From positions 1 through 28,644 of IMG/VR virus record IMGVR_UViG_2711768060_000004: a stretch of DNA of 28,644 nt; one strand, 5' to 3'. This stretch comes from a virus. Taxonomy: Duplodnaviria > Heunggongvirae > Uroviricota > Caudoviricetes. Below the pieces are notes generated by a model, which saw only the letters and a program-made list of their open reading frames with translations, made no database searches and had not been told where the DNA came from. Both the position numbers and the translations under genes were made by a program. Numbering within the stretch: position 1 is the first letter of the stretch; each line of letters begins with the position of its first letter. This document shows positions 1 through 19,030 of the stretch, one piece after another.

Positions 1-230
1 AGTACAGCACGGACAGCATCATTGATCTGCTGGCGCATCAGCGCCACCCGATAAGCCAGCGCCTCTGCCCATTTATATGCGGGATCAGATTCCACCAGAG
101 CCGAAAACAACGTATCCAGCTCCTGATACTTCGCCACTATCTGAGTGACCAGCACAGCGGTGTCCGGCACATCCACTACATCCGGTACAGGTATCGCGGA
201 CAAATCAATAATGGCCTGAGACGTTGCCAA
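1..230 (-). CDS. Baseplate assembly protein J, N-terminal part (gene runs off the window start)
   Basis: Minus-strand frame from a TTG near 230 gives (L)ATSQAIIDLSAIPVPDVVDVPD...AYRVALMRQQINDAVRAV, which resembles the remembered P2 gpJ N-terminus (MPIIDLNQLPAPDVVE...). Overlaps the upstream gp25/W gene stop as in P2. Start codon uncertain. Confidence 0.55.
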   Translation of the reverse strand, partial: MATSQAIIDLSAIPVPDVVDVPDTAVLVTQIVAKYQELDTLFSALVESDPAYKWAEALAYRVALMRQQINDAVRAV

Positions 231-561
231 TTTTTATCTCCTCGAGTCGAATCGTTTCCTGAGTTTCGTTATTCACCCCGACAAGCGTCAGCCAGGCGCA
301 GCCTTCTCCGGTCCACGTCACCTCCACCCGGCGAAGGGTCAGGCGGGGTTCCCAGCGTTCGAGGGCGGTTGCCGTTTCACGGACAATCCTCACCCGTGTG
401 AAATCATCCTGCGGGTTATCAAGCAGGCTGAACAGCCTGCTGCCGTATTCCCTGAGCAGGACCCGGCTGCCGACCGGTGTTGACAGAATATCGGTGACGG
501 ACTGACGCAGATGTTCGTTACCGTGCAGATATCTTCCGGTGGCGGAATCAATACCAATCAT
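205..561 (-). CDS. Baseplate protein W (gp25/GpW lysozyme-like family)
   Basis: Track ORF 205..651; homology starts at the internal ATG at 561 (MIGIDSATGRY...TPVGSRVLLREYGSRL...WEPRLTL), 118 aa, matching the P2 gpW/gp25 motifs TPVGSR, DYGS, WEPR. Confidence 0.7.
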   Translation of the reverse strand: MIGIDSATGRYLHGNEHLRQSVTDILSTPVGSRVLLREYGSRLFSLLDNPQDDFTRVRIVRETATALERWEPRLTLRRVEVTWTGEGCAWLTLVGVNNETQETIRLEEIKIGNVSGHY

Positions 562-572
562 GAAATTTTTCC

Positions 573-595
573 GAAAAAAAACGCCGGTGCGGCGT
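573..595 (-). terminator. Intrinsic-terminator-like hairpin plus T8 between baseplate V and W genes
   Basis: Minus strand reads ACGCCG-cac-CGGCGT (perfect 6-bp stem) followed by TTTTTTTT, directly after the V stop (596-598) and 12 nt before the W start. Confidence 0.4.
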
Positions 596-1219
596 TCACA
601 TTTCCTGGTTAGGTTTACGGGTGGTTCCCCCGCTGTCGCCGGGGTGATCATGAGTATTATAAATTTCGCGAATTTTACTCATGCTACCGGTTTTGTCGGT
701 GATCTCCTGTGAGGCACCGATATTGCCCAGAACCTGCGTATCGGCATTAATCTTCGTTTTTCCCTGTACAGTCAGGGTGTCCGTGATTTCCACCGGACCG
801 TCCAGGGTTCCCCTGCCGGTAATTTTATAGCTGCCGCCTTCAGCCAGCGTGATGAACAGGGCATTAGCCTGACGGTCGTAACGGATCTCCGTTCCGGTAT
901 CAAACAAAATAACATGCTCGTGTTCACTGCCCGCCGGTACCGGAATCGCGTCAATGTTGGCCCCCGGATACACCCGACCATTACGCAGATCACCCGCCTC
1001 CGATATCACCGTTACCGCATCTCCGGGAGCCGGGTAATTACTGACCTGCATGTAACGCCCGGACTGCACCTGAATCCAGGGCAACGGCGGTGAAAGCACA
1101 TCCCCGATATCCACCCGGACCATCACAGGGCTACCCGGGATCACCTCGTCCACCACGCCGCGACGGACCATATCCGCCACCCTGCGGCGTAACTCTGCCA
1201 CTTCATCCGCCAGACTCAT
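596..1219 (-). CDS. Baseplate assembly protein V (spike, gpV family)
   Basis: Track ORF 596..1513 trimmed to the ATG at 1219 (MSLADEVAELRRRVADMVRRG...), 207 aa. C-terminal HDHPGDSGGTT motif is typical of P2 gpV / Mu gp45. Confidence 0.7.
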   Translation of the reverse strand: MSLADEVAELRRRVADMVRRGVVDEVIPGSPVMVRVDIGDVLSPPLPWIQVQSGRYMQVSNYPAPGDAVTVISEAGDLRNGRVYPGANIDAIPVPAGSEHEHVILFDTGTEIRYDRQANALFITLAEGGSYKITGRGTLDGPVEITDTLTVQGKTKINADTQVLGNIGASQEITDKTGSMSKIREIYNTHDHPGDSGGTTRKPNQEM

Positions 1220-1769
1220 CGCCGGTGCCCTCCGCTTTCCAGATAAGACGATAATCCTGCACATGCTTTTTACCGGTTTCCGGTACTTTCCCCAGCCAGA
1301 CTTCCCGTAACGGCGCACCTGCCGGAACCGCAAACGGATCTTCGCCGGCCGGAATGTCCTGTTCAAAAGAGACCCGGAAAACGATGTAGTCGTCCAGCAG
1401 CCGGTCGAAGGTATCCACCTCAGCATCAATAAAAACCGCCGGATCAACGTTATCCAGCCCGAACGTGGCTCCATCAATCCAGTCAGATAAATCCATTGCC
1501 AGACAGCGGGCAAATATCTGCGGTTTTGACACGTTCTCCGTCTTCCCGGACCTGTCAGTCACCACAAACAGATCGCATTTCAGCGTGACCCGCATCTGCC
1601 CGTCAGCAAACGGAGCCTTGTCCCAGCCCGGTACATCCACAAACACGGCAGGCGTCACCAGTTGCGTCACTTTTTCCGGGTACTCATCGGCATCTTCCAC
1701 CCAGGGAATTTGTTTCAGACTGTCAATCACCGCCTGATGCCAGGCTCCCATCATCAATGGTTCCATCAC
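1203..1769 (-). CDS. Tail-module protein of unknown function (possible tail completion protein)
   Basis: 188-aa ORF, translationally coupled to neighbours (4-nt overlap upstream, 17-nt overlap with V). Position matches P2 R/S-type tail completion genes; no motif recognised. Confidence 0.35.
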   Translation of the reverse strand: MMEPLMMGAWHQAVIDSLKQIPWVEDADEYPEKVTQLVTPAVFVDVPGWDKAPFADGQMRVTLKCDLFVVTDRSGKTENVSKPQIFARCLAMDLSDWIDGATFGLDNVDPAVFIDAEVDTFDRLLDDYIVFRVSFEQDIPAGEDPFAVPAGAPLREVWLGKVPETGKKHVQDYRLIWKAEGTGDESGG

Positions 1770-2488
1770 TCCAGCCCCTTAAATACCCGGAATTTCAGTT
1801 CATGCTCAAAATTTTTCAGGATCAGTGCTTCCGCATCAGGGAAAACAAAATCCTCTATACGGTTCAGCATGGCTTCATAAATATCAATTTCTGCTTCGCG
1901 TACCCTTCGTCGTCCGGATGCCTGCCGGACCAAGACCGTCTTACGTCGTGAAATGCGTCCGCTCCGGTTTTCAGACTCAAATTCATTAATGAAAGCCTCT
2001 TCACCTGACCAGGTGGTGACCGGTATTGCCTCCCCGGCAGGTTTAAAACGAATCTCCCTCGCCTGTCTTCGGCGTGTGGCCGGTGCAAAACGTCCCCGTT
2101 CATCACGCAACTGATGGCGTTCGCCACGCCTTCCGCCGGTAATACGTCCGCGCAGGTCACGCACTTTGATGGCGTTCAGGCCAAACCATACCTTCGCCTC
2201 ATCAAACTCATCGCCATTTCGACGAATGATAAAAGCATTCAAGACACGGTTTTTGATCATTTTCTGACTGCGTGGCGCAACCTGTTTTTTAAACTCTGCC
2301 ATGGCCTTCATCCGCAGTGCGGACGCGGCTCTTTTCAGCGCCACGCCCCAGGCTTTACGGATCTGGCTTTTTGAACCACCCAGTTTAGCGATAATTTTCA
2401 GCACCTCATCTTCATCAATATCGACGACGAGGTTTCGTGCCAGCCGTCGCTGCCGGGCACTGCTTCGTTCATGCTCTCTGACTGCCAT
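1766..2488 (-). CDS. Arg-rich tail completion-like protein (lambda Z-like character)
   Basis: 240-aa ORF immediately after FII; Arg-rich stretch (LRGRITGGRRGERHQLRDERGRF) recalls lambda Z (LSRRRRRKKG). Assignment by position and composition only. Confidence 0.35.
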   Translation of the reverse strand: MAVREHERSSARQRRLARNLVVDIDEDEVLKIIAKLGGSKSQIRKAWGVALKRAASALRMKAMAEFKKQVAPRSQKMIKNRVLNAFIIRRNGDEFDEAKVWFGLNAIKVRDLRGRITGGRRGERHQLRDERGRFAPATRRRQAREIRFKPAGEAIPVTTWSGEEAFINEFESENRSGRISRRKTVLVRQASGRRRVREAEIDIYEAMLNRIEDFVFPDAEALILKNFEHELKFRVFKGLE

Positions 2489-2876
2489 AACGTTTACTCG
2501 GTCTGACAGGGGCGGCAGGCGTACTTCTTCCGGGTTCTCCCCGCGCGAGAGTAATGGTAATCACACCATGCCCCGCAGTACCCGACTCATCCCAGCCGGG
2601 ATCGACTACCTGATAGGGTTCACCGTGGATCATGACCCTGTCATATTTTTTCAGTCCGGCAACCCATGCGCTCCGGGTAAATAAAACTGGCGCAGTATTA
2701 CGAATTTCGCCGCTGCCAGTGTTCATCCCGGTGTTTTCTGCCGGGGCATCAAAAACGGCACGGATTCTTCTTTCCGTGCCGCCCGGATATATGCTGATTT
2801 CCGTCCCCATCGTATCCAGGATGATGTCATCCGCATCACTCATGGCCTGATCGAACAGATTATCTAACATCATCAC
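2469..2876 (-). CDS. FII: Head-tail joining protein FII
   Basis: N-terminus MMMLDNLFDQAMSDADDIILDTMGT vs lambda FII MADFDNLFDAAIARADETIRGYMGT; follows FI as in lambda. Confidence 0.75.
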   Translation of the reverse strand: MMMLDNLFDQAMSDADDIILDTMGTEISIYPGGTERRIRAVFDAPAENTGMNTGSGEIRNTAPVLFTRSAWVAGLKKYDRVMIHGEPYQVVDPGWDESGTAGHGVITITLARGEPGRSTPAAPVRPSKRYGSQRA

Positions 2877-3238
2877 TCCCGGATTTTTTCTGCCAGACCG
2901 TCCGCCAGCAACGCAGGAACTGCGGCTTCATTAACCAGCACAACACTGGAGGCCCGGGCAAACATCAACATTTTTCCCGTTACAGCATCACAGGCTGGCA
3001 TATGCGCCGTTTTCAGCATACGCACCCGGGCGAGTCCCCGCTCAGAATGCATTCCGTCGCCGGATGCATCGTTGCCCACCTCTTCCTTCCCTGTCTCCTC
3101 CCCATCGAATCCGGCGGCCTCCTCTTCCCATTCCGCCAGGCGCTGCTCAAGATCGGCTTTTGAACCTGAAATATCTGCTTCACGCCCCAGAATCACTGCC
3201 AGTTCCTGCAAACGTTCAGTCATCTGCTCTTTTGTCAT
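2873..3238 (-). CDS. FI: DNA packaging protein FI
   Basis: Track ORF 2873..3370 trimmed to the ATG at 3238 (MTKEQMTERLQELAVILGREADISGSKADLEQRLAEW) vs lambda FI MTKDELIARLRSLGEQLNRDVSLTGTKEELALRVAEL; GGGAGAG Shine-Dalgarno 5 nt upstream. Confidence 0.7.
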   Translation of the reverse strand: MTKEQMTERLQELAVILGREADISGSKADLEQRLAEWEEEAAGFDGEETGKEEVGNDASGDGMHSERGLARVRMLKTAHMPACDAVTGKMLMFARASSVVLVNEAAVPALLADGLAEKIRE

Positions 3239-3260
3239 CACATCTCTCCCGTGCGCTAAA

Positions 3261-3283
3261 GAAAAAGGCGGGAATATCCCGCC
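3261..3283 (-). terminator. Hairpin (GGCGGGAtatTCCCGCC) plus short T-run after major capsid gene
   Basis: Perfect 7-bp stem right after the E stop (3289-3291) followed by TTTTTC on the minus strand; could be a partial terminator or mRNA-stabilising hairpin. Confidence 0.35.
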
Positions 3284-3288
3284 CCGTC

Positions 3289-4317
3289 TTATTTCACCTG
3301 AACCACCACAAACGCATCCGGATCCGGCAGCACCATCAACGGCGCAGACTGCGTCATGGTATATTCGCACCCCGGGTCCCCCACCTCTAACCAGTGTTTC
3401 GGATAACGAATCGCAGAGGTGATCCCTTCACTCAGTGCCTGATTATCCTGAATGGCACCATAACAACGGACGCCTTCCGCCTGAGTGTTCCCCAGAATCA
3501 GTGTGCCTTCCGGCAGATAACGCTGTTCATCCCCGTTTTCATCGACGTAAGCGGTTTTCGCCACCACAATAGCCAGATCACCGTAATAACCCTTAAAAGA
3601 GACTACGGAGCCCAGGTCTTTCAGCGCGGTTTCCAGTTCCGATTTTGAGCCACGACGGGTATCCAGTTTTTCACGGAAAAGCTTAAAGCCATTCAGCATA
3701 CGCCAGACCGTGCCATCCATAATCGCGATATTGATGGTCCCGGAGGCAAAATCGCAGTACGCATCCAGATCGTGCGTTGGATCAAAGGTGTCAGCATTCT
3801 GCTGTGACCATCTGTTGCCGCCAGCCTGAGTAATGTTATTGGTGGCAGAGCGCCCAAAATCCACTTCCACCGTCTCAAACTGTTCCCCGCTCATGGTGTA
3901 CTTACCCTGCAGAACGGCACTGACCGCCTGCATTTCTTCCACCTGCACAATCGCCTGCTCTTCCTGCTTCAGGTTGTCCGTCAGAATACGCAGGCGGCGG
4001 TAGGCCGGGTCATTAAGACGGGCCGGATCTTCCCCCGGAAGACGTTCCACTGCCTGCTGATAATCAAAGCGGTGTTTGGGTTTTACATAACCGGGACGTA
4101 ACACGCGGGTTTCACCACCACGGCTGCGCAGCACTTTGCCTGACACCACCGGAGACACATACGCCGCAACCGGTGTTTTGCCGGTAATTTTATCCAGCAT
4201 GACTTCCTGAGTATGGAAAGTGATCGTGCGACGAAAGAACAGCTCCAGAAACAGCGCACGAAATTTCACTTTCTGCTCGGTGTACCCGAGTAACTGACGC
4301 GTGGTAAATAACCCCAT
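3289..4317 (-). CDS. E: Major capsid protein E
   Basis: 342 aa; long collinear similarity to lambda gpE (e.g. EEMQAVSAVLQGKYTMSGE, LDTRRGSKSELETALKDLG, TMTQSAPLMVLPDPD). Confidence 0.9.
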   Translation of the reverse strand: MGLFTTRQLLGYTEQKVKFRALFLELFFRRTITFHTQEVMLDKITGKTPVAAYVSPVVSGKVLRSRGGETRVLRPGYVKPKHRFDYQQAVERLPGEDPARLNDPAYRRLRILTDNLKQEEQAIVQVEEMQAVSAVLQGKYTMSGEQFETVEVDFGRSATNNITQAGGNRWSQQNADTFDPTHDLDAYCDFASGTINIAIMDGTVWRMLNGFKLFREKLDTRRGSKSELETALKDLGSVVSFKGYYGDLAIVVAKTAYVDENGDEQRYLPEGTLILGNTQAEGVRCYGAIQDNQALSEGITSAIRYPKHWLEVGDPGCEYTMTQSAPLMVLPDPDAFVVVQVK

Positions 4318-4386
4318 AATTTATTTTCCTTCAGAAACACAAACGGGCCGCATCGCGACCCGTTTTTTCAGTCAATCACTTCACCA

Positions 4387-4722
4387 TCAGGCGTGGCTGA
4401 TAGCACTTCCCACAAATGCGTTGGCTTTTTTCACCGCATCCACAGAGTCAGGCCAGACCAGCGACTCAGTGGCAAACGTACCGCTTTTGTAGTACGTCAG
4501 TGTGGGTTCTGTTCCGGCAAGCGCCAGAGCCAGCACGCCCACTGCCGTTCCGGCTTTCTGACCATCCCATGCCACCAGTTTGCCGGTGGCGTCATCCAGC
4601 ATCAGTGGCGTCAGTGCAGGCGTGGCAGCACTGACGCCACTGGTAGCGGTTGCAGTATGCGCCGGATCGCTTCCGGCAAAAATATGCACATCCGCGCGCT
4701 TTTCCGTGGTGGTTTTAATCAT
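4387..4722 (-). CDS. D: Head decoration protein D
   Basis: 111 aa; SDPAHTATA...TPLMLD...KLVAWDG...YKSGTF matches lambda gpD almost collinearly. Confidence 0.9.
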
Positions 4723-4760
4723 TTTTCAGTCTCCTGATTTATCTGAATTCCGGATATCGC

Positions 4761-6377
4761 TTACGGCATACTCATCAGCAGATCTTCTTCTCCGTGCCCG
4801 GCAGTTCCGCCACCGGAAACCGCACTGGCAGCATGCTGTGCCATAAAGCGATCAAAAAGAGTTTCCTGTGACGGTTGCGATGCCGCCGGCGCGGCTGCCA
4901 GCAGCGTTTTCGCCTGCGCCACCGTCATTCCTGGCTGTTCTGTCAGTGCCTGTGCAAGTTGTTCGCGCCCTTTCGCCTCCGGCAGCGCCATAATCTGCTC
5001 GCCGACACTTGCAGAACCCGCAACCGGTGCCGCCGCCAGTAACGTTTTGGCCTGGTCAACGGTCATTCCCGGCTGTTCAGCCAGCGCCTGCGCGAGTTGT
5101 TCACGCCCTTTTGCTTCTGGTAACGCCATAATCTGATCGCCTGTGCCTGCAGCACCGGCAGCAGGGGCTGCCGCCAGAAACGCTTTCGCCTGCGCCACCG
5201 TCATCCCCGGTTGACCTGCCAGCATCTGTGCCAGTTGCTCACGCCCCTTTGCTTCCGGCAGCGCCATAATCTGATCACCCGTGCTGTCAGTACCGGCAAC
5301 CGGCGCAGCAGCCAGCAACGTTTTCGCCTGCTCAACCGTCATTCCAGGTTGACCTGCCAGCATTTGCGCCAGTTGCTCGCGCCCTTTCGCCTCCTGACAA
5401 TTCAGGATCCCCATCACGCGCTGATTTTCCTGGGCCACCGCTTCAGCAACGGTGAGATTTTTAACAGTCATTGCATTCTCCTTCGTAACAGAGTCATTCA
5501 GTGCAGAAACCATCACTTCAACGGCATCTGCAGCATTAATCAGTTGATCAGCCAGGCCTGCATCAATGCCTGCCTGACCGTCATAAACGGCAGCCTCGGT
5601 ATTCATCACCGCCTCTGAACTCAGCCCCGTATAAAGCGCCACCTTGTCGACAAACATCCGGCGGGCCTCATCAATACGGCGCTGAAAATCTGCACGCACA
5701 CCTGCCGGCAATGCCTGAATACTGTTGCCGTCAACCTTGTGCTGCCCGGAGTAAATCAGCGTGATGTCCACCCCTTCCTGTGCCAGTTGTTTCTCGTAAC
5801 TGGTATGCGCCATCATCACGCCAATCGAACCAATTTTTGCCGTCTGCGTGACCAGCCGACGGGTACAGGCTGCCGCCAGCAACATGGCGGCTGAACAGGC
5901 CATGTCATTACACAGCGCCCACACGGGCTTCTGTTCCCGCAGACGGTAAATCATGTCAGCACAGTCAAACGCCCCGGCAGCCTGACCGCCCGGGCTGTCG
6001 ATATCCAGCAAAATGCCGCGCACATCCGGATCATTCACCGCCATCTGAAGGCGGGCCGTCAGGCCGTCATAGCCAGTCATGCCGGAGTAAGGCCGCAGGG
6101 TACCCAGTTTATGCACCAGCGTGCCGCTCACCGGAAGAATGGCGATGCCATTCTTCACCTGGTAACTCTTTGCCGGACGCTGACCGCCCGCCATATAGTC
6201 AGTCACAGCCAGTTGCATACCATCAGCATCAAGCTGAACAGCCTGCTGAGGAACGGCAAGGCTGCCGGCTCCCATCTCTTTACCCAGCGCGCAAAAGAAA
6301 ACCCGCGCATAGGCGGGTTCCAGTAAAAGCGGCTCATTAAATGCCATGGCGGCAATATGCGATAAATTACGACGCAT
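4761..6377 (-). CDS. C: Head maturation protease / scaffold fusion (lambda C with nested Nu3-like scaffold domain)
   Basis: 538 aa; position after portal B and before D as lambda C/Nu3. C-terminal third is four tandem 46-aa units (MALPEAKGREQLAQ.L..QPGMTV.QAK..LAAAP...), three with in-frame ATG. Confidence 0.8.
   Translation of the reverse strand: MRRNLSHIAAMAFNEPLLLEPAYARVFFCALGKEMGAGSLAVPQQAVQLDADGMQLAVTDYMAGGQRPAKSYQVKNGIAILPVSGTLVHKLGTLRPYSGMTGYDGLTARLQMAVNDPDVRGILLDIDSPGGQAAGAFDCADMIYRLREQKPVWALCNDMACSAAMLLAAACTRRLVTQTAKIGSIGVMMAHTSYEKQLAQEGVDITLIYSGQHKVDGNSIQALPAGVRADFQRRIDEARRMFVDKVALYTGLSSEAVMNTEAAVYDGQAGIDAGLADQLINAADAVEVMVSALNDSVTKENAMTVKNLTVAEAVAQENQRVMGILNCQEAKGREQLAQMLAGQPGMTVEQAKTLLAAAPVAGTDSTGDQIMALPEAKGREQLAQMLAGQPGMTVAQAKAFLAAAPAAGAAGTGDQIMALPEAKGREQLAQALAEQPGMTVDQAKTLLAAAPVAGSASVGEQIMALPEAKGREQLAQALTEQPGMTVAQAKTLLAAAPAASQPSQETLFDRFMAQHAASAVSGGGTAGHGEEDLLMSMP
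4880..5405. repeat. About 3.8 tandem copies of a 138-bp unit inside the C/Nu3 coding region
   Basis: In-frame ATGs recur at 4991, 5129, 5267 (138-bp period) with near-identical flanking DNA (gccataatctg..., ccagcgcctgcgc..., tcacgccc...). Confidence 0.85.
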
Positions 6378-7938
6378 CGACTTTTTCTCCCGTTGTCTGT
6401 CGGATCTGCTGCTGAAACGTGTCCTTTATCCAGATGGGGCGGGGAAGACCCGCTGCCTGTCGCTCCTGGCTTTCACGCAGTTGCTGGCGGAAAATCTCCT
6501 GATAGTCATCGCCCATCAGGGCCAGCTCTTTCTCATACGTACTTAAACCACCTTCAATACGCATCACCGCTTCCTGCACTTCCTTAAGGCCATCAATCGC
6601 CATGCGACCGGCACCAATCCACTCGGCACGACACCATCCGGAACGGGCCTCCCAGAATGAAAAACGGGATTTCGGCGGGCGGATCACACCGCGAATAAGA
6701 GCTTCCTCCAGCCAGCAGGCAAACATCTGTGATGCCAGCCGGCTGGCCACAAATTTTCGTTTGCCCATAAAATACCGCCACGACTCATTGGCGGATGCCC
6801 TGGCACTGGAATAACTGACCTGTGAATAATCACGGGAAAGCTGTTCATAGGACACCCCCAGTCCGGCAGCAATGTAACGTAACAGCGCCTTTTCCAGTTC
6901 AGAGAAACCATTATCTGCATTCTGCGCTGTCTGCAGATTCAGTGAATCCCCCGGATAAAGATGTGGAATACGGACCCCGCCCAGCTTTACCGTATTGGTG
7001 GCGTAATAACGCGCGTAGCCTTTCATGATGGTGTTCAGGGGATTTTTACCGCCATCTCCCACCCCGGCGATATATTCAAATGCTTTTTCCGAATCCAGCG
7101 TGGATTCAATCGTCGCGGCATACATCGCCCGCACCACCGCCGACTGCAGTTGCGTGGCCTGCAGTGTGTCGAGCATCTTGAGGCGCTCCATGACAGAATA
7201 AAACTGGTTGGCCCCGCGCGTCTGCCCGTCCTCCTGCGGCTGAAACACATGGATCATTCCCGGTCGCCCGGAGGGCAGCGTCGCCGCAATCCGCGTCCAG
7301 TTGCTGACACCGTAACCGGGCCAGTCATCTTCCTGAACATGGTAGGCCAGTGCTTTTCCGTACCGGTTGATTTCCACCCCGGCACGCATAAAACGATCGC
7401 CGGTACCATAACCGGGTGTACTGACACGTTTCGGGCTGATGGTTTTGAATTTCGTCCGGAATAATGACGTGGATTCCGTATCCCATACGGGCTGGACAAA
7501 AATTTCACCGTTAAATGTATGAACGCCCACCCCTTCACGAATAAATTCGGTAAACGAGCGACGCCCCTCCACATCCATCGAACCAAACACCGGATCGCAG
7601 AATTCCATCCACGCCGCCTCCACATCTTCAATAAAGGCATGTGAATCGGCTTCCGACATCCCCAGCCAGCGCCAGTTGGGCCGGTAACTCAGACGAAACA
7701 TGTGTCCGACGATATGGTCTTTATGAATTTCAACGGCGTTTGCGGCAATACCGTTATTGCGGACCAGATCATCCGCACGGGCGTTACCCAGCTGAATGGA
7801 AGGTAAGAGCGCCACGTCGGCACTTTCCGGTGCAGGCAGCCATTCCGCAAGCTGCCCGCCAAATCCGGTACCCCCTCCGGAATACCCCATACTCTGCCGC
7901 AATGGCTGCCCGTGAAGATCCACCAGTTCCCCGTTCAC
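6367..7938 (-). CDS. B: Portal protein B
   Basis: 523 aa; collinear with lambda gpB (GNARADDLVRNNG, HVFQPQEDGQTRGANQFYSVME, LNLQTAQNADNG, LLRYIAAGLGVSYEQLSR, MAIDGLKEVQEAVM). Confidence 0.9.
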   Translation of the reverse strand: MNGELVDLHGQPLRQSMGYSGGGTGFGGQLAEWLPAPESADVALLPSIQLGNARADDLVRNNGIAANAVEIHKDHIVGHMFRLSYRPNWRWLGMSEADSHAFIEDVEAAWMEFCDPVFGSMDVEGRRSFTEFIREGVGVHTFNGEIFVQPVWDTESTSLFRTKFKTISPKRVSTPGYGTGDRFMRAGVEINRYGKALAYHVQEDDWPGYGVSNWTRIAATLPSGRPGMIHVFQPQEDGQTRGANQFYSVMERLKMLDTLQATQLQSAVVRAMYAATIESTLDSEKAFEYIAGVGDGGKNPLNTIMKGYARYYATNTVKLGGVRIPHLYPGDSLNLQTAQNADNGFSELEKALLRYIAAGLGVSYEQLSRDYSQVSYSSARASANESWRYFMGKRKFVASRLASQMFACWLEEALIRGVIRPPKSRFSFWEARSGWCRAEWIGAGRMAIDGLKEVQEAVMRIEGGLSTYEKELALMGDDYQEIFRQQLRESQERQAAGLPRPIWIKDTFQQQIRQTTGEKVDAS

Positions 7939-8144
7939 AGCCCCACTCCTGCCGGGCCGCGACGCCGTCCGGATACACCCAGCGCACTTTCCAGCTCTTC
8001 AATATACTGACGCAGTTCACCAATCGTCGCCCGCGAATACTGAACCTGACGCCCGTCCTTGCTGACAGAAACCACAGCACGTCCGATCATCAGTTCATGT
8101 AATGCCCGGCGGGCATCACAAAGCATTTCATGCGTATAAACCAT
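7935..8144 (-). CDS. W: Head-tail connector protein W
   Basis: 69 aa; ARRALHELMIGRAVVSVSKDGRQV...YIEELE...RRRGPAG vs lambda W [24 protein letters not shown]...YIAELE...RRRGPAG. Confidence 0.85.
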   Translation of the reverse strand: MVYTHEMLCDARRALHELMIGRAVVSVSKDGRQVQYSRATIGELRQYIEELESALGVSGRRRGPAGVGL

Positions 8145-8147
8145 TCT

Positions 8148-17980: not shown

Positions 17981-19030
17981 TTACCCGAGCACGCCGGTTG
18001 CAAAGGCGTGATCAAGAAAACGAAAAATTAAATCAACCTGGGAACCATGCTTTTCTTCAAACGCCAGCGGATCCGCATGAAGTTCATTGTGATGCTCCCG
18101 GCACAGCGGTAACGTGAAAATATCGTGGGCTTTTGTTCCCATTCCACCCTGACCATGACCAATCAGGTGATGGGGATCGTTGGCTGGCTGACCACAACAC
18201 GCACACGGCTGTGTCTTTACCCAGCGTGTGTATTTCTCATTTATCCAACGGCGACGTTTAGGTCGCTTCATGAAAGATTCCGGAGACTCCGGATCTACGG
18301 CAATGCTGACCACCGTCTTTTCCTGTGGTGCGTTCTGTTGCTGGTGGACGTGAGGCAACGGCGCAAGATTTTTTGTGCGCTGCTTCAGTATGCTGGTGGC
18401 GGTCTGCTCTCCCGGTATGATGTCGCTTTCGCGGTACACCGAGCGGATTTTTTCCGCACGTAATCCCAGCGAACGACGCAATACTGTCTCCGGTAGCGCG
18501 TCCGCCACCTGATTGCAGACTGCCCACCAGGATAATTCAGCCAGCGATAATTCCCGCTCCTGTGTGCCATTCATTGCCTGGCGTATGACGTCAATCATCC
18601 ATGCTGTCAGGTTTTGGTGAGCAAGTTGCCCGAGTGATTCGGAAGTCTGGTCACGCAGCTGGTTGTCGCAGTGCCAGCACAACACCATCGCGCCGGTACC
18701 GTAACGATGTATGACGGTTTCACTGTGATGGTAGTCACCATGAGGCCACTGGCAGGATTTGACATGACGCAGGAGCCAGTCAGACAATGCACCTGCGCCG
18801 CCGGCAGCACGAATCACCCGCTCATCGCTGAAAAATGGCAGCAGAGATTTATCTTCCGCCAGCGGCTGGCAAGCGGCAGGAACGACCCCGGACGGCAGCC
18901 CGCGCATGCTTTTCGGTTCAGGCTCCACCAGCACACGCCCCTGCATAAACAAAGGCATCGCATCAGGACCGGGCCTGAAAAGTACAATCCCCAGACGGTG
19001 AGCAATTTCAGGAGTCACTAATACCCGCAC
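17981..19030 (-). CDS. DUF968-family protein (YdfU-like) with C-terminal HNH-like Cys/His motif
   Basis: 349 aa, same length and position as Qin ydfU; C-terminus CACCGQPANDPHHLIGHGQGG...LPLCREHHNELH resembles an HNH/zinc-finger nuclease motif. Confidence 0.6.
   Translation of the reverse strand: MRVLVTPEIAHRLGIVLFRPGPDAMPLFMQGRVLVEPEPKSMRGLPSGVVPAACQPLAEDKSLLPFFSDERVIRAAGGAGALSDWLLRHVKSCQWPHGDYHHSETVIHRYGTGAMVLCWHCDNQLRDQTSESLGQLAHQNLTAWMIDVIRQAMNGTQERELSLAELSWWAVCNQVADALPETVLRRSLGLRAEKIRSVYRESDIIPGEQTATSILKQRTKNLAPLPHVHQQQNAPQEKTVVSIAVDPESPESFMKRPKRRRWINEKYTRWVKTQPCACCGQPANDPHHLIGHGQGGMGTKAHDIFTLPLCREHHNELHADPLAFEEKHGSQVDLIFRFLDHAFATGVLG

What the first reader, a model, noticed from the sequence alone, without database searches (positions are those of the whole stretch)
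1..2488. Mosaic morphogenesis module: lambda-type head genes joined directly to P2/Mu-type baseplate genes
Nu1, A, W, B, C, D, E, FI and FII are clearly lambda-like, yet the genes immediately downstream are not lambda Z, U, V (siphovirus tail) but two unassigned proteins followed by baseplate V (HDHPGDSGG motif), a gp25/W-like protein and baseplate J, in the P2 order with no sheath or tube before the baseplate. This implies a lambdoid phage with a contractile tail, and the two unassigned proteins (1203..2488) would be the head-to-tail adaptor proteins of the hybrid.
Basis: partly seen in the sequence, partly recalled or inferred. Interest (0 to 1): 0.45.

Follow-up and report, generated by a model that had tools for sequence, protein, structure and literature searches.

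The report
Lambdoid prophage with contractile tail
This is the neck-to-baseplate part of an E. coli lambdoid prophage that joins a lambda/phage-21-type head to a P2/R-pyocin-type contractile tail, an arrangement already known from Wolbachia phage WO and Vibrio phage Valp1. The two "unassigned" proteins are an ordinary lambda gpZ-family tail completion protein and a tail terminator.

Summary
On the minus strand the order is Nu1-A-W-B-C-D-E-FI-FII, a 240-aa gene, a 188-aa gene, then P2-type V, W and the start of J.

- The 240-aa protein belongs to the lambda gpZ family (tail completion, Neck1). It hits PHROG 27 at 8e-26, and a family profile matches lambda gpZ at 95.8% probability.

Together with W and FII these form a canonical Ad1-Hc1-Ne1-Tc1 neck.

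Sibling E. coli prophages (up to 99% identical) continue with I, H, G, sheath, tube, E, T, U, X and D, which is a complete contractile tail. Vibrio phage Valp1 has the same gene order and is a myovirus by electron microscopy.

Lambda-head/P2-tail phages have been described since phage WO. What is specific here is a phage-21-like head block (Nu1-E) whose similarity ends at the E stop codon, next to a yong2/Chris1-like neck and tail. This is a new member of a known kind, of low interest.

The parts
3..230 (-). N-terminal 76 codons of baseplate wedge protein J (gp6/J family); the gene runs off the window start
   Evidence: PHROG 6 baseplate wedge 2.3e-15. 55% identical to yong2 J and 35% to P2 J. 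The full-length gene is annotated in sibling prophages.
205..561 (-). Baseplate wedge / sheath-initiator protein W (gp25 family), 118 aa
   Evidence: Pfam GPW_gp25 1.2e-15, above cut-off. PHROG 43 3.9e-38. 39% identical to P2 W and 59% to yong2.
579..597 (-). Terminator-like hairpin plus T-run directly after the V stop codon, in the 34-nt V-W gap
   Evidence: A hairpin plus T-run sits at the same place after V in yong2 and Chris1, although the next gene there is the sheath gene. Function not tested.
596..1219 (-). Baseplate central spike / assembly protein V (P2 gpV family), 207 aa, with a C-terminal HxH motif (THDHPGDSGGTT)
   Evidence: TIGR01644 2.7e-21, above cut-off. PDB 3qr8 P2 gpV 2.5e-13. 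Motif aligned with P2. 63% identical to Chris1 V and 27% to P2 V.
1203..1769 (-). Tail terminator / collar protein (Tc1; gpU fold, PA0615/Mu type), 187-188 aa. The probable start is the ATG at 1766, overlapping the upstream stop codon (TGATG).
1766..2488 (-). Tail completion / Neck1 protein of the lambda gpZ family, 240 aa, with a region about 60 aa long, inserted relative to gpZ, after its conserved basic (Arg-rich) stretch
   Evidence: PHROG 27 8.3e-26 over its full length. Lambda gpZ is in the same PHROG at 3.2e-69. 31 of 57 family members hit Pfam Minor_tail_Z. hhalign of the family against lambda gpZ: 95.8%, E 6.5e-9. dN/dS 0.10. The AF2 model is poor (pLDDT 60).
2469..2873 (-). Head closure / head-tail joining protein FII (Hc1), 134 aa
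   Evidence: Pfam Phage_attach 1.2e-13. NF049848 tail_join_FII above cut-off. PDB lambda gpFII 5.8e-8. 29-36% identical to lambda, phage 21, yong2 and Chris1 alike.
2873..3238 (-). DNA packaging chaperone FI, 121 aa
   Evidence: Pfam Packaging_FI 7.5e-13. 38% identical to phage 21 FI. Start as annotated in RefSeq siblings.
3265..3288 (-). E-FI intergenic hairpin, at the point where nucleotide similarity to phage 21 ends (mosaic joint)
   Evidence: The megablast match to phage 21 covers 3289-10748 only. Hairpin. Amino-acid identity drops from 83% (E) to 38% (FI).
3289..10608 (-). Lambda/phage-21-type packaging and head genes: E 3289-4317, D 4387-4722, C 4761-6377, B 6367-7938, W 7935-8144, A 8148-10106, Nu1 10036-10608 (ORF limits)
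   Evidence: 77% nucleotide identity to phage 21. 61-90% amino-acid identity to phage 21, except W at 47%. Pfam Phage_cap_E, HDPD, Peptidase_S49, GpA_ATPase/nuclease and Phage_Nu1.

Best explanation
The region is the neck and proximal baseplate part of the late operon of a lambdoid temperate phage with a contractile tail. The phage combines a lambda/phage-21-type head with a P2/R-pyocin-type tail.

How it most likely works:
1. The baseplate is built from the V spike, W, J and I, plus D, U and X encoded further downstream.
2. The tube and sheath then polymerise along the tape measure protein.
3. The 188-aa protein caps the tube and the last sheath ring as a hexameric terminator/collar, like PA0615 of R2 pyocin and the Mu terminator.
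4. The 240-aa gpZ-family protein completes the tail, probably sitting in the lumen at the tape-measure end, where it later meets the DNA end.
5. The finished tail docks through the terminator onto FII, which together with W closes the portal of the DNA-filled head.
6. Transcription is probably lambda-style Q-antiterminated read-through, not P2 Ogr-activated promoters.

What is shown: gene content and order, family and fold assignments, purifying selection, a complete tail gene set in near-identical prophages, and a contractile tail in a collinear relative.

What is inferred: oligomeric states, protein positions in the virion, the FII-terminator contact, the mode of transcription, and that this particular prophage is active.

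Evolution: the head-neck-tail architecture as a whole is old and shared with Valp1 and WO. In the E. coli lineage a phage-21-like Nu1-E block adjoins a yong2/Chris1-like FII-Z-terminator-V-tail block, with the similarity break at the E stop codon.
For: - Family calls for V, W, J, FI and FII.
- 240-aa protein: PHROG 27, shared with lambda gpZ. 31 of 57 relatives hit Pfam Minor_tail_Z. hhalign against gpZ gives 95.8%.
- The order W...FII-240-188 equals the canonical Ad1-Hc1-Ne1-Tc1 type 1 neck, which is found in both siphoviruses and myoviruses (PMC4362835).
- Sibling prophages at two attachment sites continue with I, H, G, sheath, tube, E, T, U, X and D. The sibling sheath matches pyocin sheath PA0622 at 1.6e-52.
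- Valp1 has the same order from TerS to D, with 28-49% amino-acid identity across A, W, B, C, E, Z, terminator, V, W and J. Electron microscopy shows a 90-nm contractile tail (PMC11054321).
- dN/dS is 0.10-0.12.
- The lambdoid backbone, including Q, is in the window.
- The role and location of gpZ-type proteins are taken from the 80alpha neck structure paper (PMC11661146).
Against: - The window ends inside J, so its own sheath and tube genes are not seen.
- The closest full-length matches cover only about 78% of the window at about 95% identity, so no identical genome was found.
- The 240-aa protein has no direct Pfam or PDB sequence hit. Its model is poor and its fold search uninformative. 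Its assignment rests on profile and transitive homology.
- Some sibling copies carry frameshifts in V and E, so some members are decaying.
- No isolate of this E. coli lineage is in the phage collection, so activity and morphology are unproven for it.
Confidence: 0.85

Rival explanations
1. A recent, one-off chimera made in E. coli by recombination between a lambda-like prophage and a true P2-like prophage. On this reading the two unassigned proteins are novel adaptors that make the mismatched head and tail fit.
For: Nucleotide similarity to phage 21 ends abruptly at the E stop codon. V, W and J are in P2 order.
Against: - V, W and J are only 27-39% identical to their P2 counterparts, but 54-63% identical to the best of yong2 and Chris1.
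- The 240-aa and 188-aa proteins belong to old, widespread families: 185 clusters at 50% identity for the 240-aa family, and homologues in Wolbachia, Vibrio and Burkholderia phages.
- Valp1 is collinear from TerS to D.
- P2's own R and S proteins fall in different PHROGs, 65 and 26.
Confidence: 0.05
2. A defective remnant or a tailocin-like module: the tail genes are not used to build an infectious hybrid virion.
For: - The window stops in J.
- The STEC383 copy has frameshifted V and E genes and a truncated fibre gene.
- The 52F4 copy carries an IS21 insertion in the late region.
- The tail genes are collinear with an R-type pyocin, and the collar and sheath hit PA0615 and PA0622.
Against: - In the window every gene from Nu1 to the start of J is intact and tightly coupled.
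- Head genes, neck genes and a lambdoid regulatory, replication and lysis set are all present.
- dN/dS is about 0.1.
- The module occurs in 105 of 5426 complete genomes and at two or more attachment sites.
- FII and a gpZ homologue are pointless for a headless tailocin.
Confidence: 0.1
3. The 240-aa and 188-aa proteins are the P2 S and R tail completion proteins in diverged form, so the whole block from the 240-aa gene onward is P2-derived.
For: They sit directly upstream of V, W and J, as R and S do in P2. P2 R is also named a tail terminator and P2 S a Neck1 protein (PMC4362835), so the functions are analogous.
Against: - P2 R is PHROG 65 and P2 S is PHROG 26, whereas the window proteins hit only PHROGs 1072 and 27.
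- hhalign of the families against P2 R and S gives no signal.
- The gene order is reversed: Ne1 then terminator here, R (terminator) then S (Ne1) in P2.
- The 240-aa family links to lambda gpZ instead.
Confidence: 0.05

Closest known systems
Vibrio phage vB_VaM_Valp1 (OR500391), a temperate telomeric myovirus
   Same: The morphogenesis gene order is the same: TerS-TerL-W-portal-protease-D-like-MCP-FI-position gene-FII-Neck1-(terminator)-V-W-J-I-fibre-sheath-tube-E-T-U-X-D. Amino-acid identity is 28-49% for A, W, B, C, E, the 240-aa protein, the 188-aa protein, V, W and J. Electron microscopy shows a contractile tail.
   Different: Valp1 has two small extra genes, one of them PAAR, between V and W. 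It is a linear plasmid prophage with a protelomerase rather than an integrated lambdoid prophage. Its head genes are far from phage 21.
Hafnia phage yong2 and Citrobacter phage Chris1
   Same: They are the closest sequenced phage isolates for the neck and tail block: 240-aa protein 42-44%, 188-aa protein 49-53%, V 54-63%, W 54-59%, J 50-55%. They share the same FII-Ne1-terminator-V block, followed by a hairpin.
   Different: After V come sheath-tube-E-T-U-X-D and then W-J-I-H, a permuted tail order. The head uses a fused protease-capsid protein, and the terminase is only 25% identical.
Wolbachia phage WO (WOCauB, WOVitA, WORiC)
   Same: It is described in the literature as a chimera of lambda-like packaging and head genes with P2-like baseplate and tail genes. 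Its order is C...minor tail protein Z-hypothetical-V-(hypothetical)-W-J-I...sheath-tube. The hypothetical protein upstream of V is a homologue of the 188-aa protein, at 25-31% identity.
   Different: The host is a very distant alphaproteobacterial endosymbiont, sequence identity is low, and there are extra eukaryote-association genes.
R2-type pyocin of Pseudomonas aeruginosa (PA0615-PA0628)
   Same: The 188-aa protein is a sequence and structure homologue of collar PA0615. The sibling sheath matches PA0622. From my own knowledge of the pyocin locus, not tested here, the order terminator-V-W-J-I-H-chaperone-sheath-tube-E-T-U-X-D is the same.
   Different: The pyocin has no head, no FII and no gpZ homologue, and it is a bacteriocin rather than a virus.
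Phage lambda / phage 21 (Z and U)
   Different: There is no V, G, T, H, M, L, K, I, J siphovirus tail. The terminator is about 55 aa longer than gpU, with a C-terminal extension of the kind seen in contractile-tail terminators. The Z homologue carries an insertion of about 60 aa.
Phage P2 (Peduoviridae)
   Same: The V-W-J-I-H-G and FI-FII-E-T-U-D gene sets and their internal order are the same. The V spike HxH motif is conserved.
   Different: Identity is only 27-39%. The R, S and L neck proteins belong to different families. There is no P2 capsid or terminase and no Ogr. X lies between U and D rather than in the head operon.

Membership tests
Lambda gpZ / Neck1 (Ne1) tail completion family (Pfam PF06763 Minor_tail_Z; PHROG 27) | Significant match to the family profile | tested here: met
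   PHROG 27 at 8.3e-26 over residues 15-239. Lambda gpZ itself hits PHROG 27 at 3.2e-69. There is no direct Pfam hit for the window protein, but 31 of 57 HMM-retrieved relatives hit PF06763, and the family profile against lambda gpZ gives 95.8% probability, E 6.5e-9.
Lambda gpZ / Neck1 (Ne1) tail completion family (Pfam PF06763 Minor_tail_Z; PHROG 27) | Gene position between head closure (Hc1/FII) and tail terminator (Tc1) | tested here: met
   The order is FII 2469-2873, 240-aa gene 1766-2488, terminator 1203-1769. The canonical order Ad1-Hc1-Ne1-Tc1 is given in PMC4362835.
Lambda gpZ / Neck1 (Ne1) tail completion family (Pfam PF06763 Minor_tail_Z; PHROG 27) | Fold: long N-terminal helix, beta region, long C-terminal helix | tested here: inconclusive
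Lambda gpZ / Neck1 (Ne1) tail completion family (Pfam PF06763 Minor_tail_Z; PHROG 27) | Virion-associated, and required for infectivity or head-tail joining | not testable with these tools
   Needs genetics or virion proteomics.
Tail terminator (Tc1; lambda gpU / Mu terminator / R2 pyocin collar PA0615 fold) | gpU-type alpha/beta fold | tested here: met
Tail terminator (Tc1; lambda gpU / Mu terminator / R2 pyocin collar PA0615 fold) | Sequence homology to a structurally characterised member | tested here: met
   The family profile A2 against PDB sequences gives a single hit, collar PA0615, at E 3.4e-10 over residues 21-172 vs 23-165. There is no Pfam or NCBIfam hit.
Tail terminator (Tc1; lambda gpU / Mu terminator / R2 pyocin collar PA0615 fold) | Hexameric ring capping the tube (and sheath) and binding the head closure protein | not testable with these tools
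   Needs cryo-EM or biochemistry. No multimer prediction was available.
P2 gpR / gpS tail completion proteins | Match to the P2 R (PHROG 65) or S (PHROG 26) profiles | tested here: not met
   The window proteins hit only PHROGs 1072 and 27, whereas P2 R and S hit 65 and 26. hhalign against P2 R and S gives probability below 1%.
P2 baseplate assembly protein V (TIGR01644) | Profile score above the curated cut-off, and the C-terminal HxH spike-tip motif | tested here: met
   76 bits against a cut-off of 46.75. PDB 3qr8 at 2.5e-13. THDHPGDSGGTT aligns with P2 THKHPGDSGGTT. Pfam gave no hit.
gp25/W baseplate wedge (PF04965) | Profile score above the gathering threshold | tested here: met
   57.6 bits against 27.2.
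Lambdoid phages (functional definition: lambda-type gene order and regulation) | cI/Cro-type immunity region, O/P-type replication, Q antiterminator, lysis cassette, then Nu1-A packaging genes, in lambda order | tested here: met
   HTH repressor 24719-25228 (+), divergent Cro-like gene, DnaT-domain and lambda P-like genes, RusA, Phage_antiter_Q at 1.3e-84, M15 endolysin, Nu1 and A.
Peduoviridae (P2-like phages) as a whole | P2-type capsid, scaffold, portal and terminase (N, O, Q, P, M) and Ogr-type late activator | tested here: not met
   The head and packaging genes are lambda-type. No ogr-like gene is annotated after D in the sibling prophages. Only the tail is P2-like.

The most novel reading that the evidence does not exclude
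In this E. coli lineage a phage-21-type head block (Nu1 to E) was grafted fairly recently, at the E/FI boundary, onto a yong2/Valp1-type myovirus neck and tail. FII travels with the tail, and gpW is unusually diverged (47-49% identity, against 74-82% for its neighbours A and B). That would make the W-FII contact, rather than the FII-terminator contact, the interface that had to adapt. The lineage would then be a natural experiment on which neck interface limits head-tail module exchange.
Probability: 0.35. Interest if true: 0.35.

Novelty: new member of a known kind. Interest (0 to 1): 0.2.

Why it matters
The main value is for annotation. Two genes that RefSeq labels "hypothetical protein" in about a hundred complete E. 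coli genomes can be named: a gpZ-family tail completion protein and a PA0615-type tail terminator. Prophages of this type should be classed as lambdoid myoviruses, not as lambda-like siphoviruses or P2-like phages. This affects predictions of host range and receptor, because these prophages carry P2-type H/G fibres and also a second, Stf-type fibre gene. It also gives another example of the type 1 neck (Ad1-Hc1-Ne1-Tc1) serving as a shared coupling between lambda-type heads and contractile tails. It does not open a new question.

Tried and rejected
- Pfam and NCBIfam searches on the 188-aa and 240-aa proteins and on their family members gave no significant direct hit.
- Shallow profiles compared with single reference sequences (lambda Z and U, P2 R and S) were uninformative. 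Only the broader A4 family alignment linked the 240-aa protein to gpZ.
- Literature searches for "lambda-like head" plus "P2-like tail", and for yong2, found nothing. Papers on CFT073 prophages and on urinary coliphages turned out to be irrelevant.
- No close phage isolate was found for 1-3288 at the DNA level.
- Rejected: that the two proteins are P2 R and S, and that the region is a recent lambda x P2 chimera or a tailocin remnant (see the rival explanations).
Full report
**What is in the window.** All relevant genes lie on the minus strand. Read in the direction of transcription, the order is:
- Nu1 (10036-10608), A (8148-10106), W (7935-8144), B (6367-7938), C (4761-6377), D (4387-4722), E (3289-4317)
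- FI (2873-3238), FII (2469-2873)
- a 240-aa gene (1766-2488) and a 188-aa gene (1203-1769)
- V (596-1219), W/gp25 (205-561), and the first 76 codons of J (230 to the window edge)

The genes overlap or abut: FII/240 overlap by 20 nt, 240/188 share a TGATG junction, and 188/V overlap by 17 nt.

Upstream, the window is a typical lambdoid genome. It has an HTH repressor with a divergent Cro-like gene, a DnaT-domain protein and a lambda P-like replication protein, RusA, a Q antiterminator (Pfam 1.3e-84), two tRNAs, holins and an M15 endolysin.

- E, D, C, FI and FII match the lambda Pfam families. Nu1 and A do too.
- W/gp25 passes the Pfam threshold.
- V has no Pfam hit. It does pass the curated TIGR01644 phage_P2_V cut-off, and it matches the solved P2 gpV structure 3qr8 at 2.5e-13.
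- The J fragment hits the baseplate wedge PHROG.

**The 188-aa protein.** No Pfam, NCBIfam or named PHROG family matches it. I built an alignment of 46 homologues. It gave an AlphaFold2 model with mean pLDDT 83.4.

The family profile also finds PA0615 by sequence alone (E 3.4e-10, nearly full length). The protein is therefore a tail terminator with the gpU fold. Its closest solved relatives are the terminators of contractile tails.

**The 240-aa protein.** It matches PHROG 27, "tail completion or Neck1 protein", at 8.3e-26 over its full length. Lambda gpZ belongs to the same PHROG (3.2e-69). P2 R and S belong to other PHROGs, 65 and 26.

There is no direct Pfam hit. I therefore searched 1.84 billion representative proteins with the family profile, which returned 185 clusters. 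Many of them are about 190 aa long and match in two stretches, because they lack the middle insertion. Of 57 sampled members, 31 hit Pfam Minor_tail_Z. The broadened alignment matches lambda gpZ at 95.8% probability, E 6.5e-9.

The AF2 model was poor (pLDDT 60), and its fold search was uninformative. In summary, this is a gpZ-family tail completion protein that carries an extra region of about 60 aa after the conserved basic stretch.

**The neck as a whole.** W (Ad1), FII (Hc1), the 240-aa protein (Ne1) and the 188-aa protein (Tc1) form the canonical type 1 neck in its usual gene order. This neck type occurs in both siphoviruses and myoviruses (PMC4362835).

For gpZ-type proteins, the 80alpha neck structure shows a monomer inside the tail lumen. 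It contacts the tape measure protein and the DNA end. Lambda particles made without gpZ are about 500-fold less infectious (PMC11661146).

The two proteins are thus tail-side completion proteins. They are not new adaptors invented for a hybrid.

**Is there a contractile tail?** The window ends in J. The region 1-3400 occurs in 105 of 5426 complete E. coli genomes. Two siblings were examined:
- In strain 52F4 (99.1% identical over 1-3400) the genes continue with I, an H-type fibre, G, sheath, tube, tail assembly protein, tape measure, U, X and D. A second long fibre gene follows, and then an ompW remnant.
- In STEC383 the same module sits at potB, with some frameshifts.

The sibling sheath matches pyocin sheath PA0622 at 1.6e-52. 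dN/dS between the window and STEC383 is 0.10-0.12 for FII, the 240-aa gene and the 188-aa gene.

**Relatives and prior knowledge.** tblastn finds both proteins, adjacent to each other and upstream of V, in Hafnia phage yong2, Citrobacter phage Chris1, Vibrio phage Valp1 and some E. coli vB_EcoM phages. The 188-aa homologue is also found upstream of V in many Wolbachia WO phages, and a Burkholderia phage carries a homologue too.

Valp1 is collinear with the window plus its sibling tail, from TerS to D. It shares 28-49% amino-acid identity across ten proteins. Electron microscopy shows a myovirus with a 90-nm contractile tail (PMC11054321).

The WO literature describes lambda-like packaging and head genes combined with P2-like baseplate and tail genes. 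It lists the order C...Z-hypothetical-V-W-J-I, and it notes Xylella prophages as further lambda/P2 chimeras (PMC3235987). The architecture is therefore known and old.

**Where the mosaic joint lies.**

| Gene(s) | Closest reference | Amino-acid identity |
|---|---|---|
| Nu1, A, B, C, D, E | phage 21 | 61-90% (77% at nucleotide level) |
| W | lambda / phage 21 | 47-49% |
| FI | phage 21 | 38% |
| FII | lambda, 21, yong2, Chris1 alike | 29-36% |
| 240-aa, 188-aa, V, W, J | yong2 / Chris1 | 42-63% |
| V, W, J | P2 | 27-39% |

Nucleotide similarity to phage 21 stops exactly at the E stop codon, position 3289. The E. coli lineage therefore combines a phage-21-like head block with a yong2/Chris1-like neck and tail block. 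FII lies on the tail side of the joint. No sequenced phage isolate in the collection carries DNA close to 1-3288.

**Mechanism.** I infer standard contractile-tail assembly:
1. The baseplate forms from V, W, J and I plus the downstream D, U and X proteins.
2. The tube and sheath polymerise on the tape measure protein.
3. The 188-aa hexamer caps the tube and sheath.
4. The gpZ-like protein completes the tail.
5. The tail joins heads that have been closed by W and FII.
6. Late transcription is probably Q-antiterminated read-through, which would explain why terminator-like hairpins after D, E and V are tolerated.

Family and fold assignments and gene content are shown. Stoichiometry, contacts, the mode of transcription and the activity of this particular prophage are inferred.

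**Verdict.** This is a new member of a known kind, of low interest.

Noticed in passing
window 4886-5394 (inside gene C, minus strand): A 138-bp tandem repeat with 3.7 copies at 79% match, encoding repeats of about 46 aa (ALPEAKGREQLAQ.LAGQPGMTV.QAK.LLAAAP...) in the scaffold (Nu3-like) part of the protease/scaffold protein. C is 538 aa here, against 439 in lambda and 501 in phage 21.
   Followed up: partly
window 579-597, 3265-3285, 4341-4365 (minus strand); L002 about 9101-9125; L003 about 18366-18390: Terminator-like hairpins with T-runs lie after V, after E (exactly where similarity to phage 21 ends) and after D. The region has 11 such sites, against 3.9 expected. A hairpin plus T-run also follows V in yong2 and Chris1, although the next gene there is the sheath gene. 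FII-Z-terminator-V therefore looks like a conserved unit with a punctuated end.
   Followed up: partly
window 7935-8144 (gpW): gpW is only 47-49% identical to lambda and phage 21 W, while its neighbours A and B are 82% and 74% identical to phage 21. This may reflect co-divergence with the heterologous FII that it contacts.
   Followed up: no
window 14995-15148 and 15316-16362 (minus strand): tRNA-Gly(TCC) and tRNA-Thr(TGT) lie next to a 348-aa DNA methyltransferase gene, between Q and the lysis genes. This is the slot where Stx phages carry tRNAs and stx. There is no stx here. Many of the genomes that carry the module are named STEC.
   Followed up: no
L001 7106-10838 (E. coli 52F4) and L007 8363-10886 (STEC383): After tail gene D the sibling prophages carry a second, long lambdoid-type fibre gene ("prophage tail fiber N-terminal domain", 1046 aa) and a DUF4376 gene, in addition to the P2-type H/G fibre pair. 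The virion may therefore carry two fibre systems.
   Followed up: no
L001 (ompW site) vs L007 (potB site): The same head-neck-tail module sits at two different chromosomal attachment sites. The STEC383 copy has frameshifts in V and E and a truncated fibre gene. The 52F4 copy has an ISEc12 (IS21-family) insertion between the lysis genes and the TerB-family and DUF3927 genes.
   Followed up: partly
window 28526-28616: A 21-bp tandem repeat with 4.3 copies (GAAACAAAACGAGCCAGAAAC) lies near the right end of the window. It was not examined.
   Followed up: no
window 1766-2488, residues about 115-175 of the 240-aa protein: An Arg-rich segment that the model predicts as disordered. Relative to gpZ, the residues after about position 121 are inserted, while the basic stretch itself aligns with the RRRRRKK stretch of lambda gpZ. 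This is consistent with a DNA-end or tape-measure contact, but that was not tested.
   Followed up: partly
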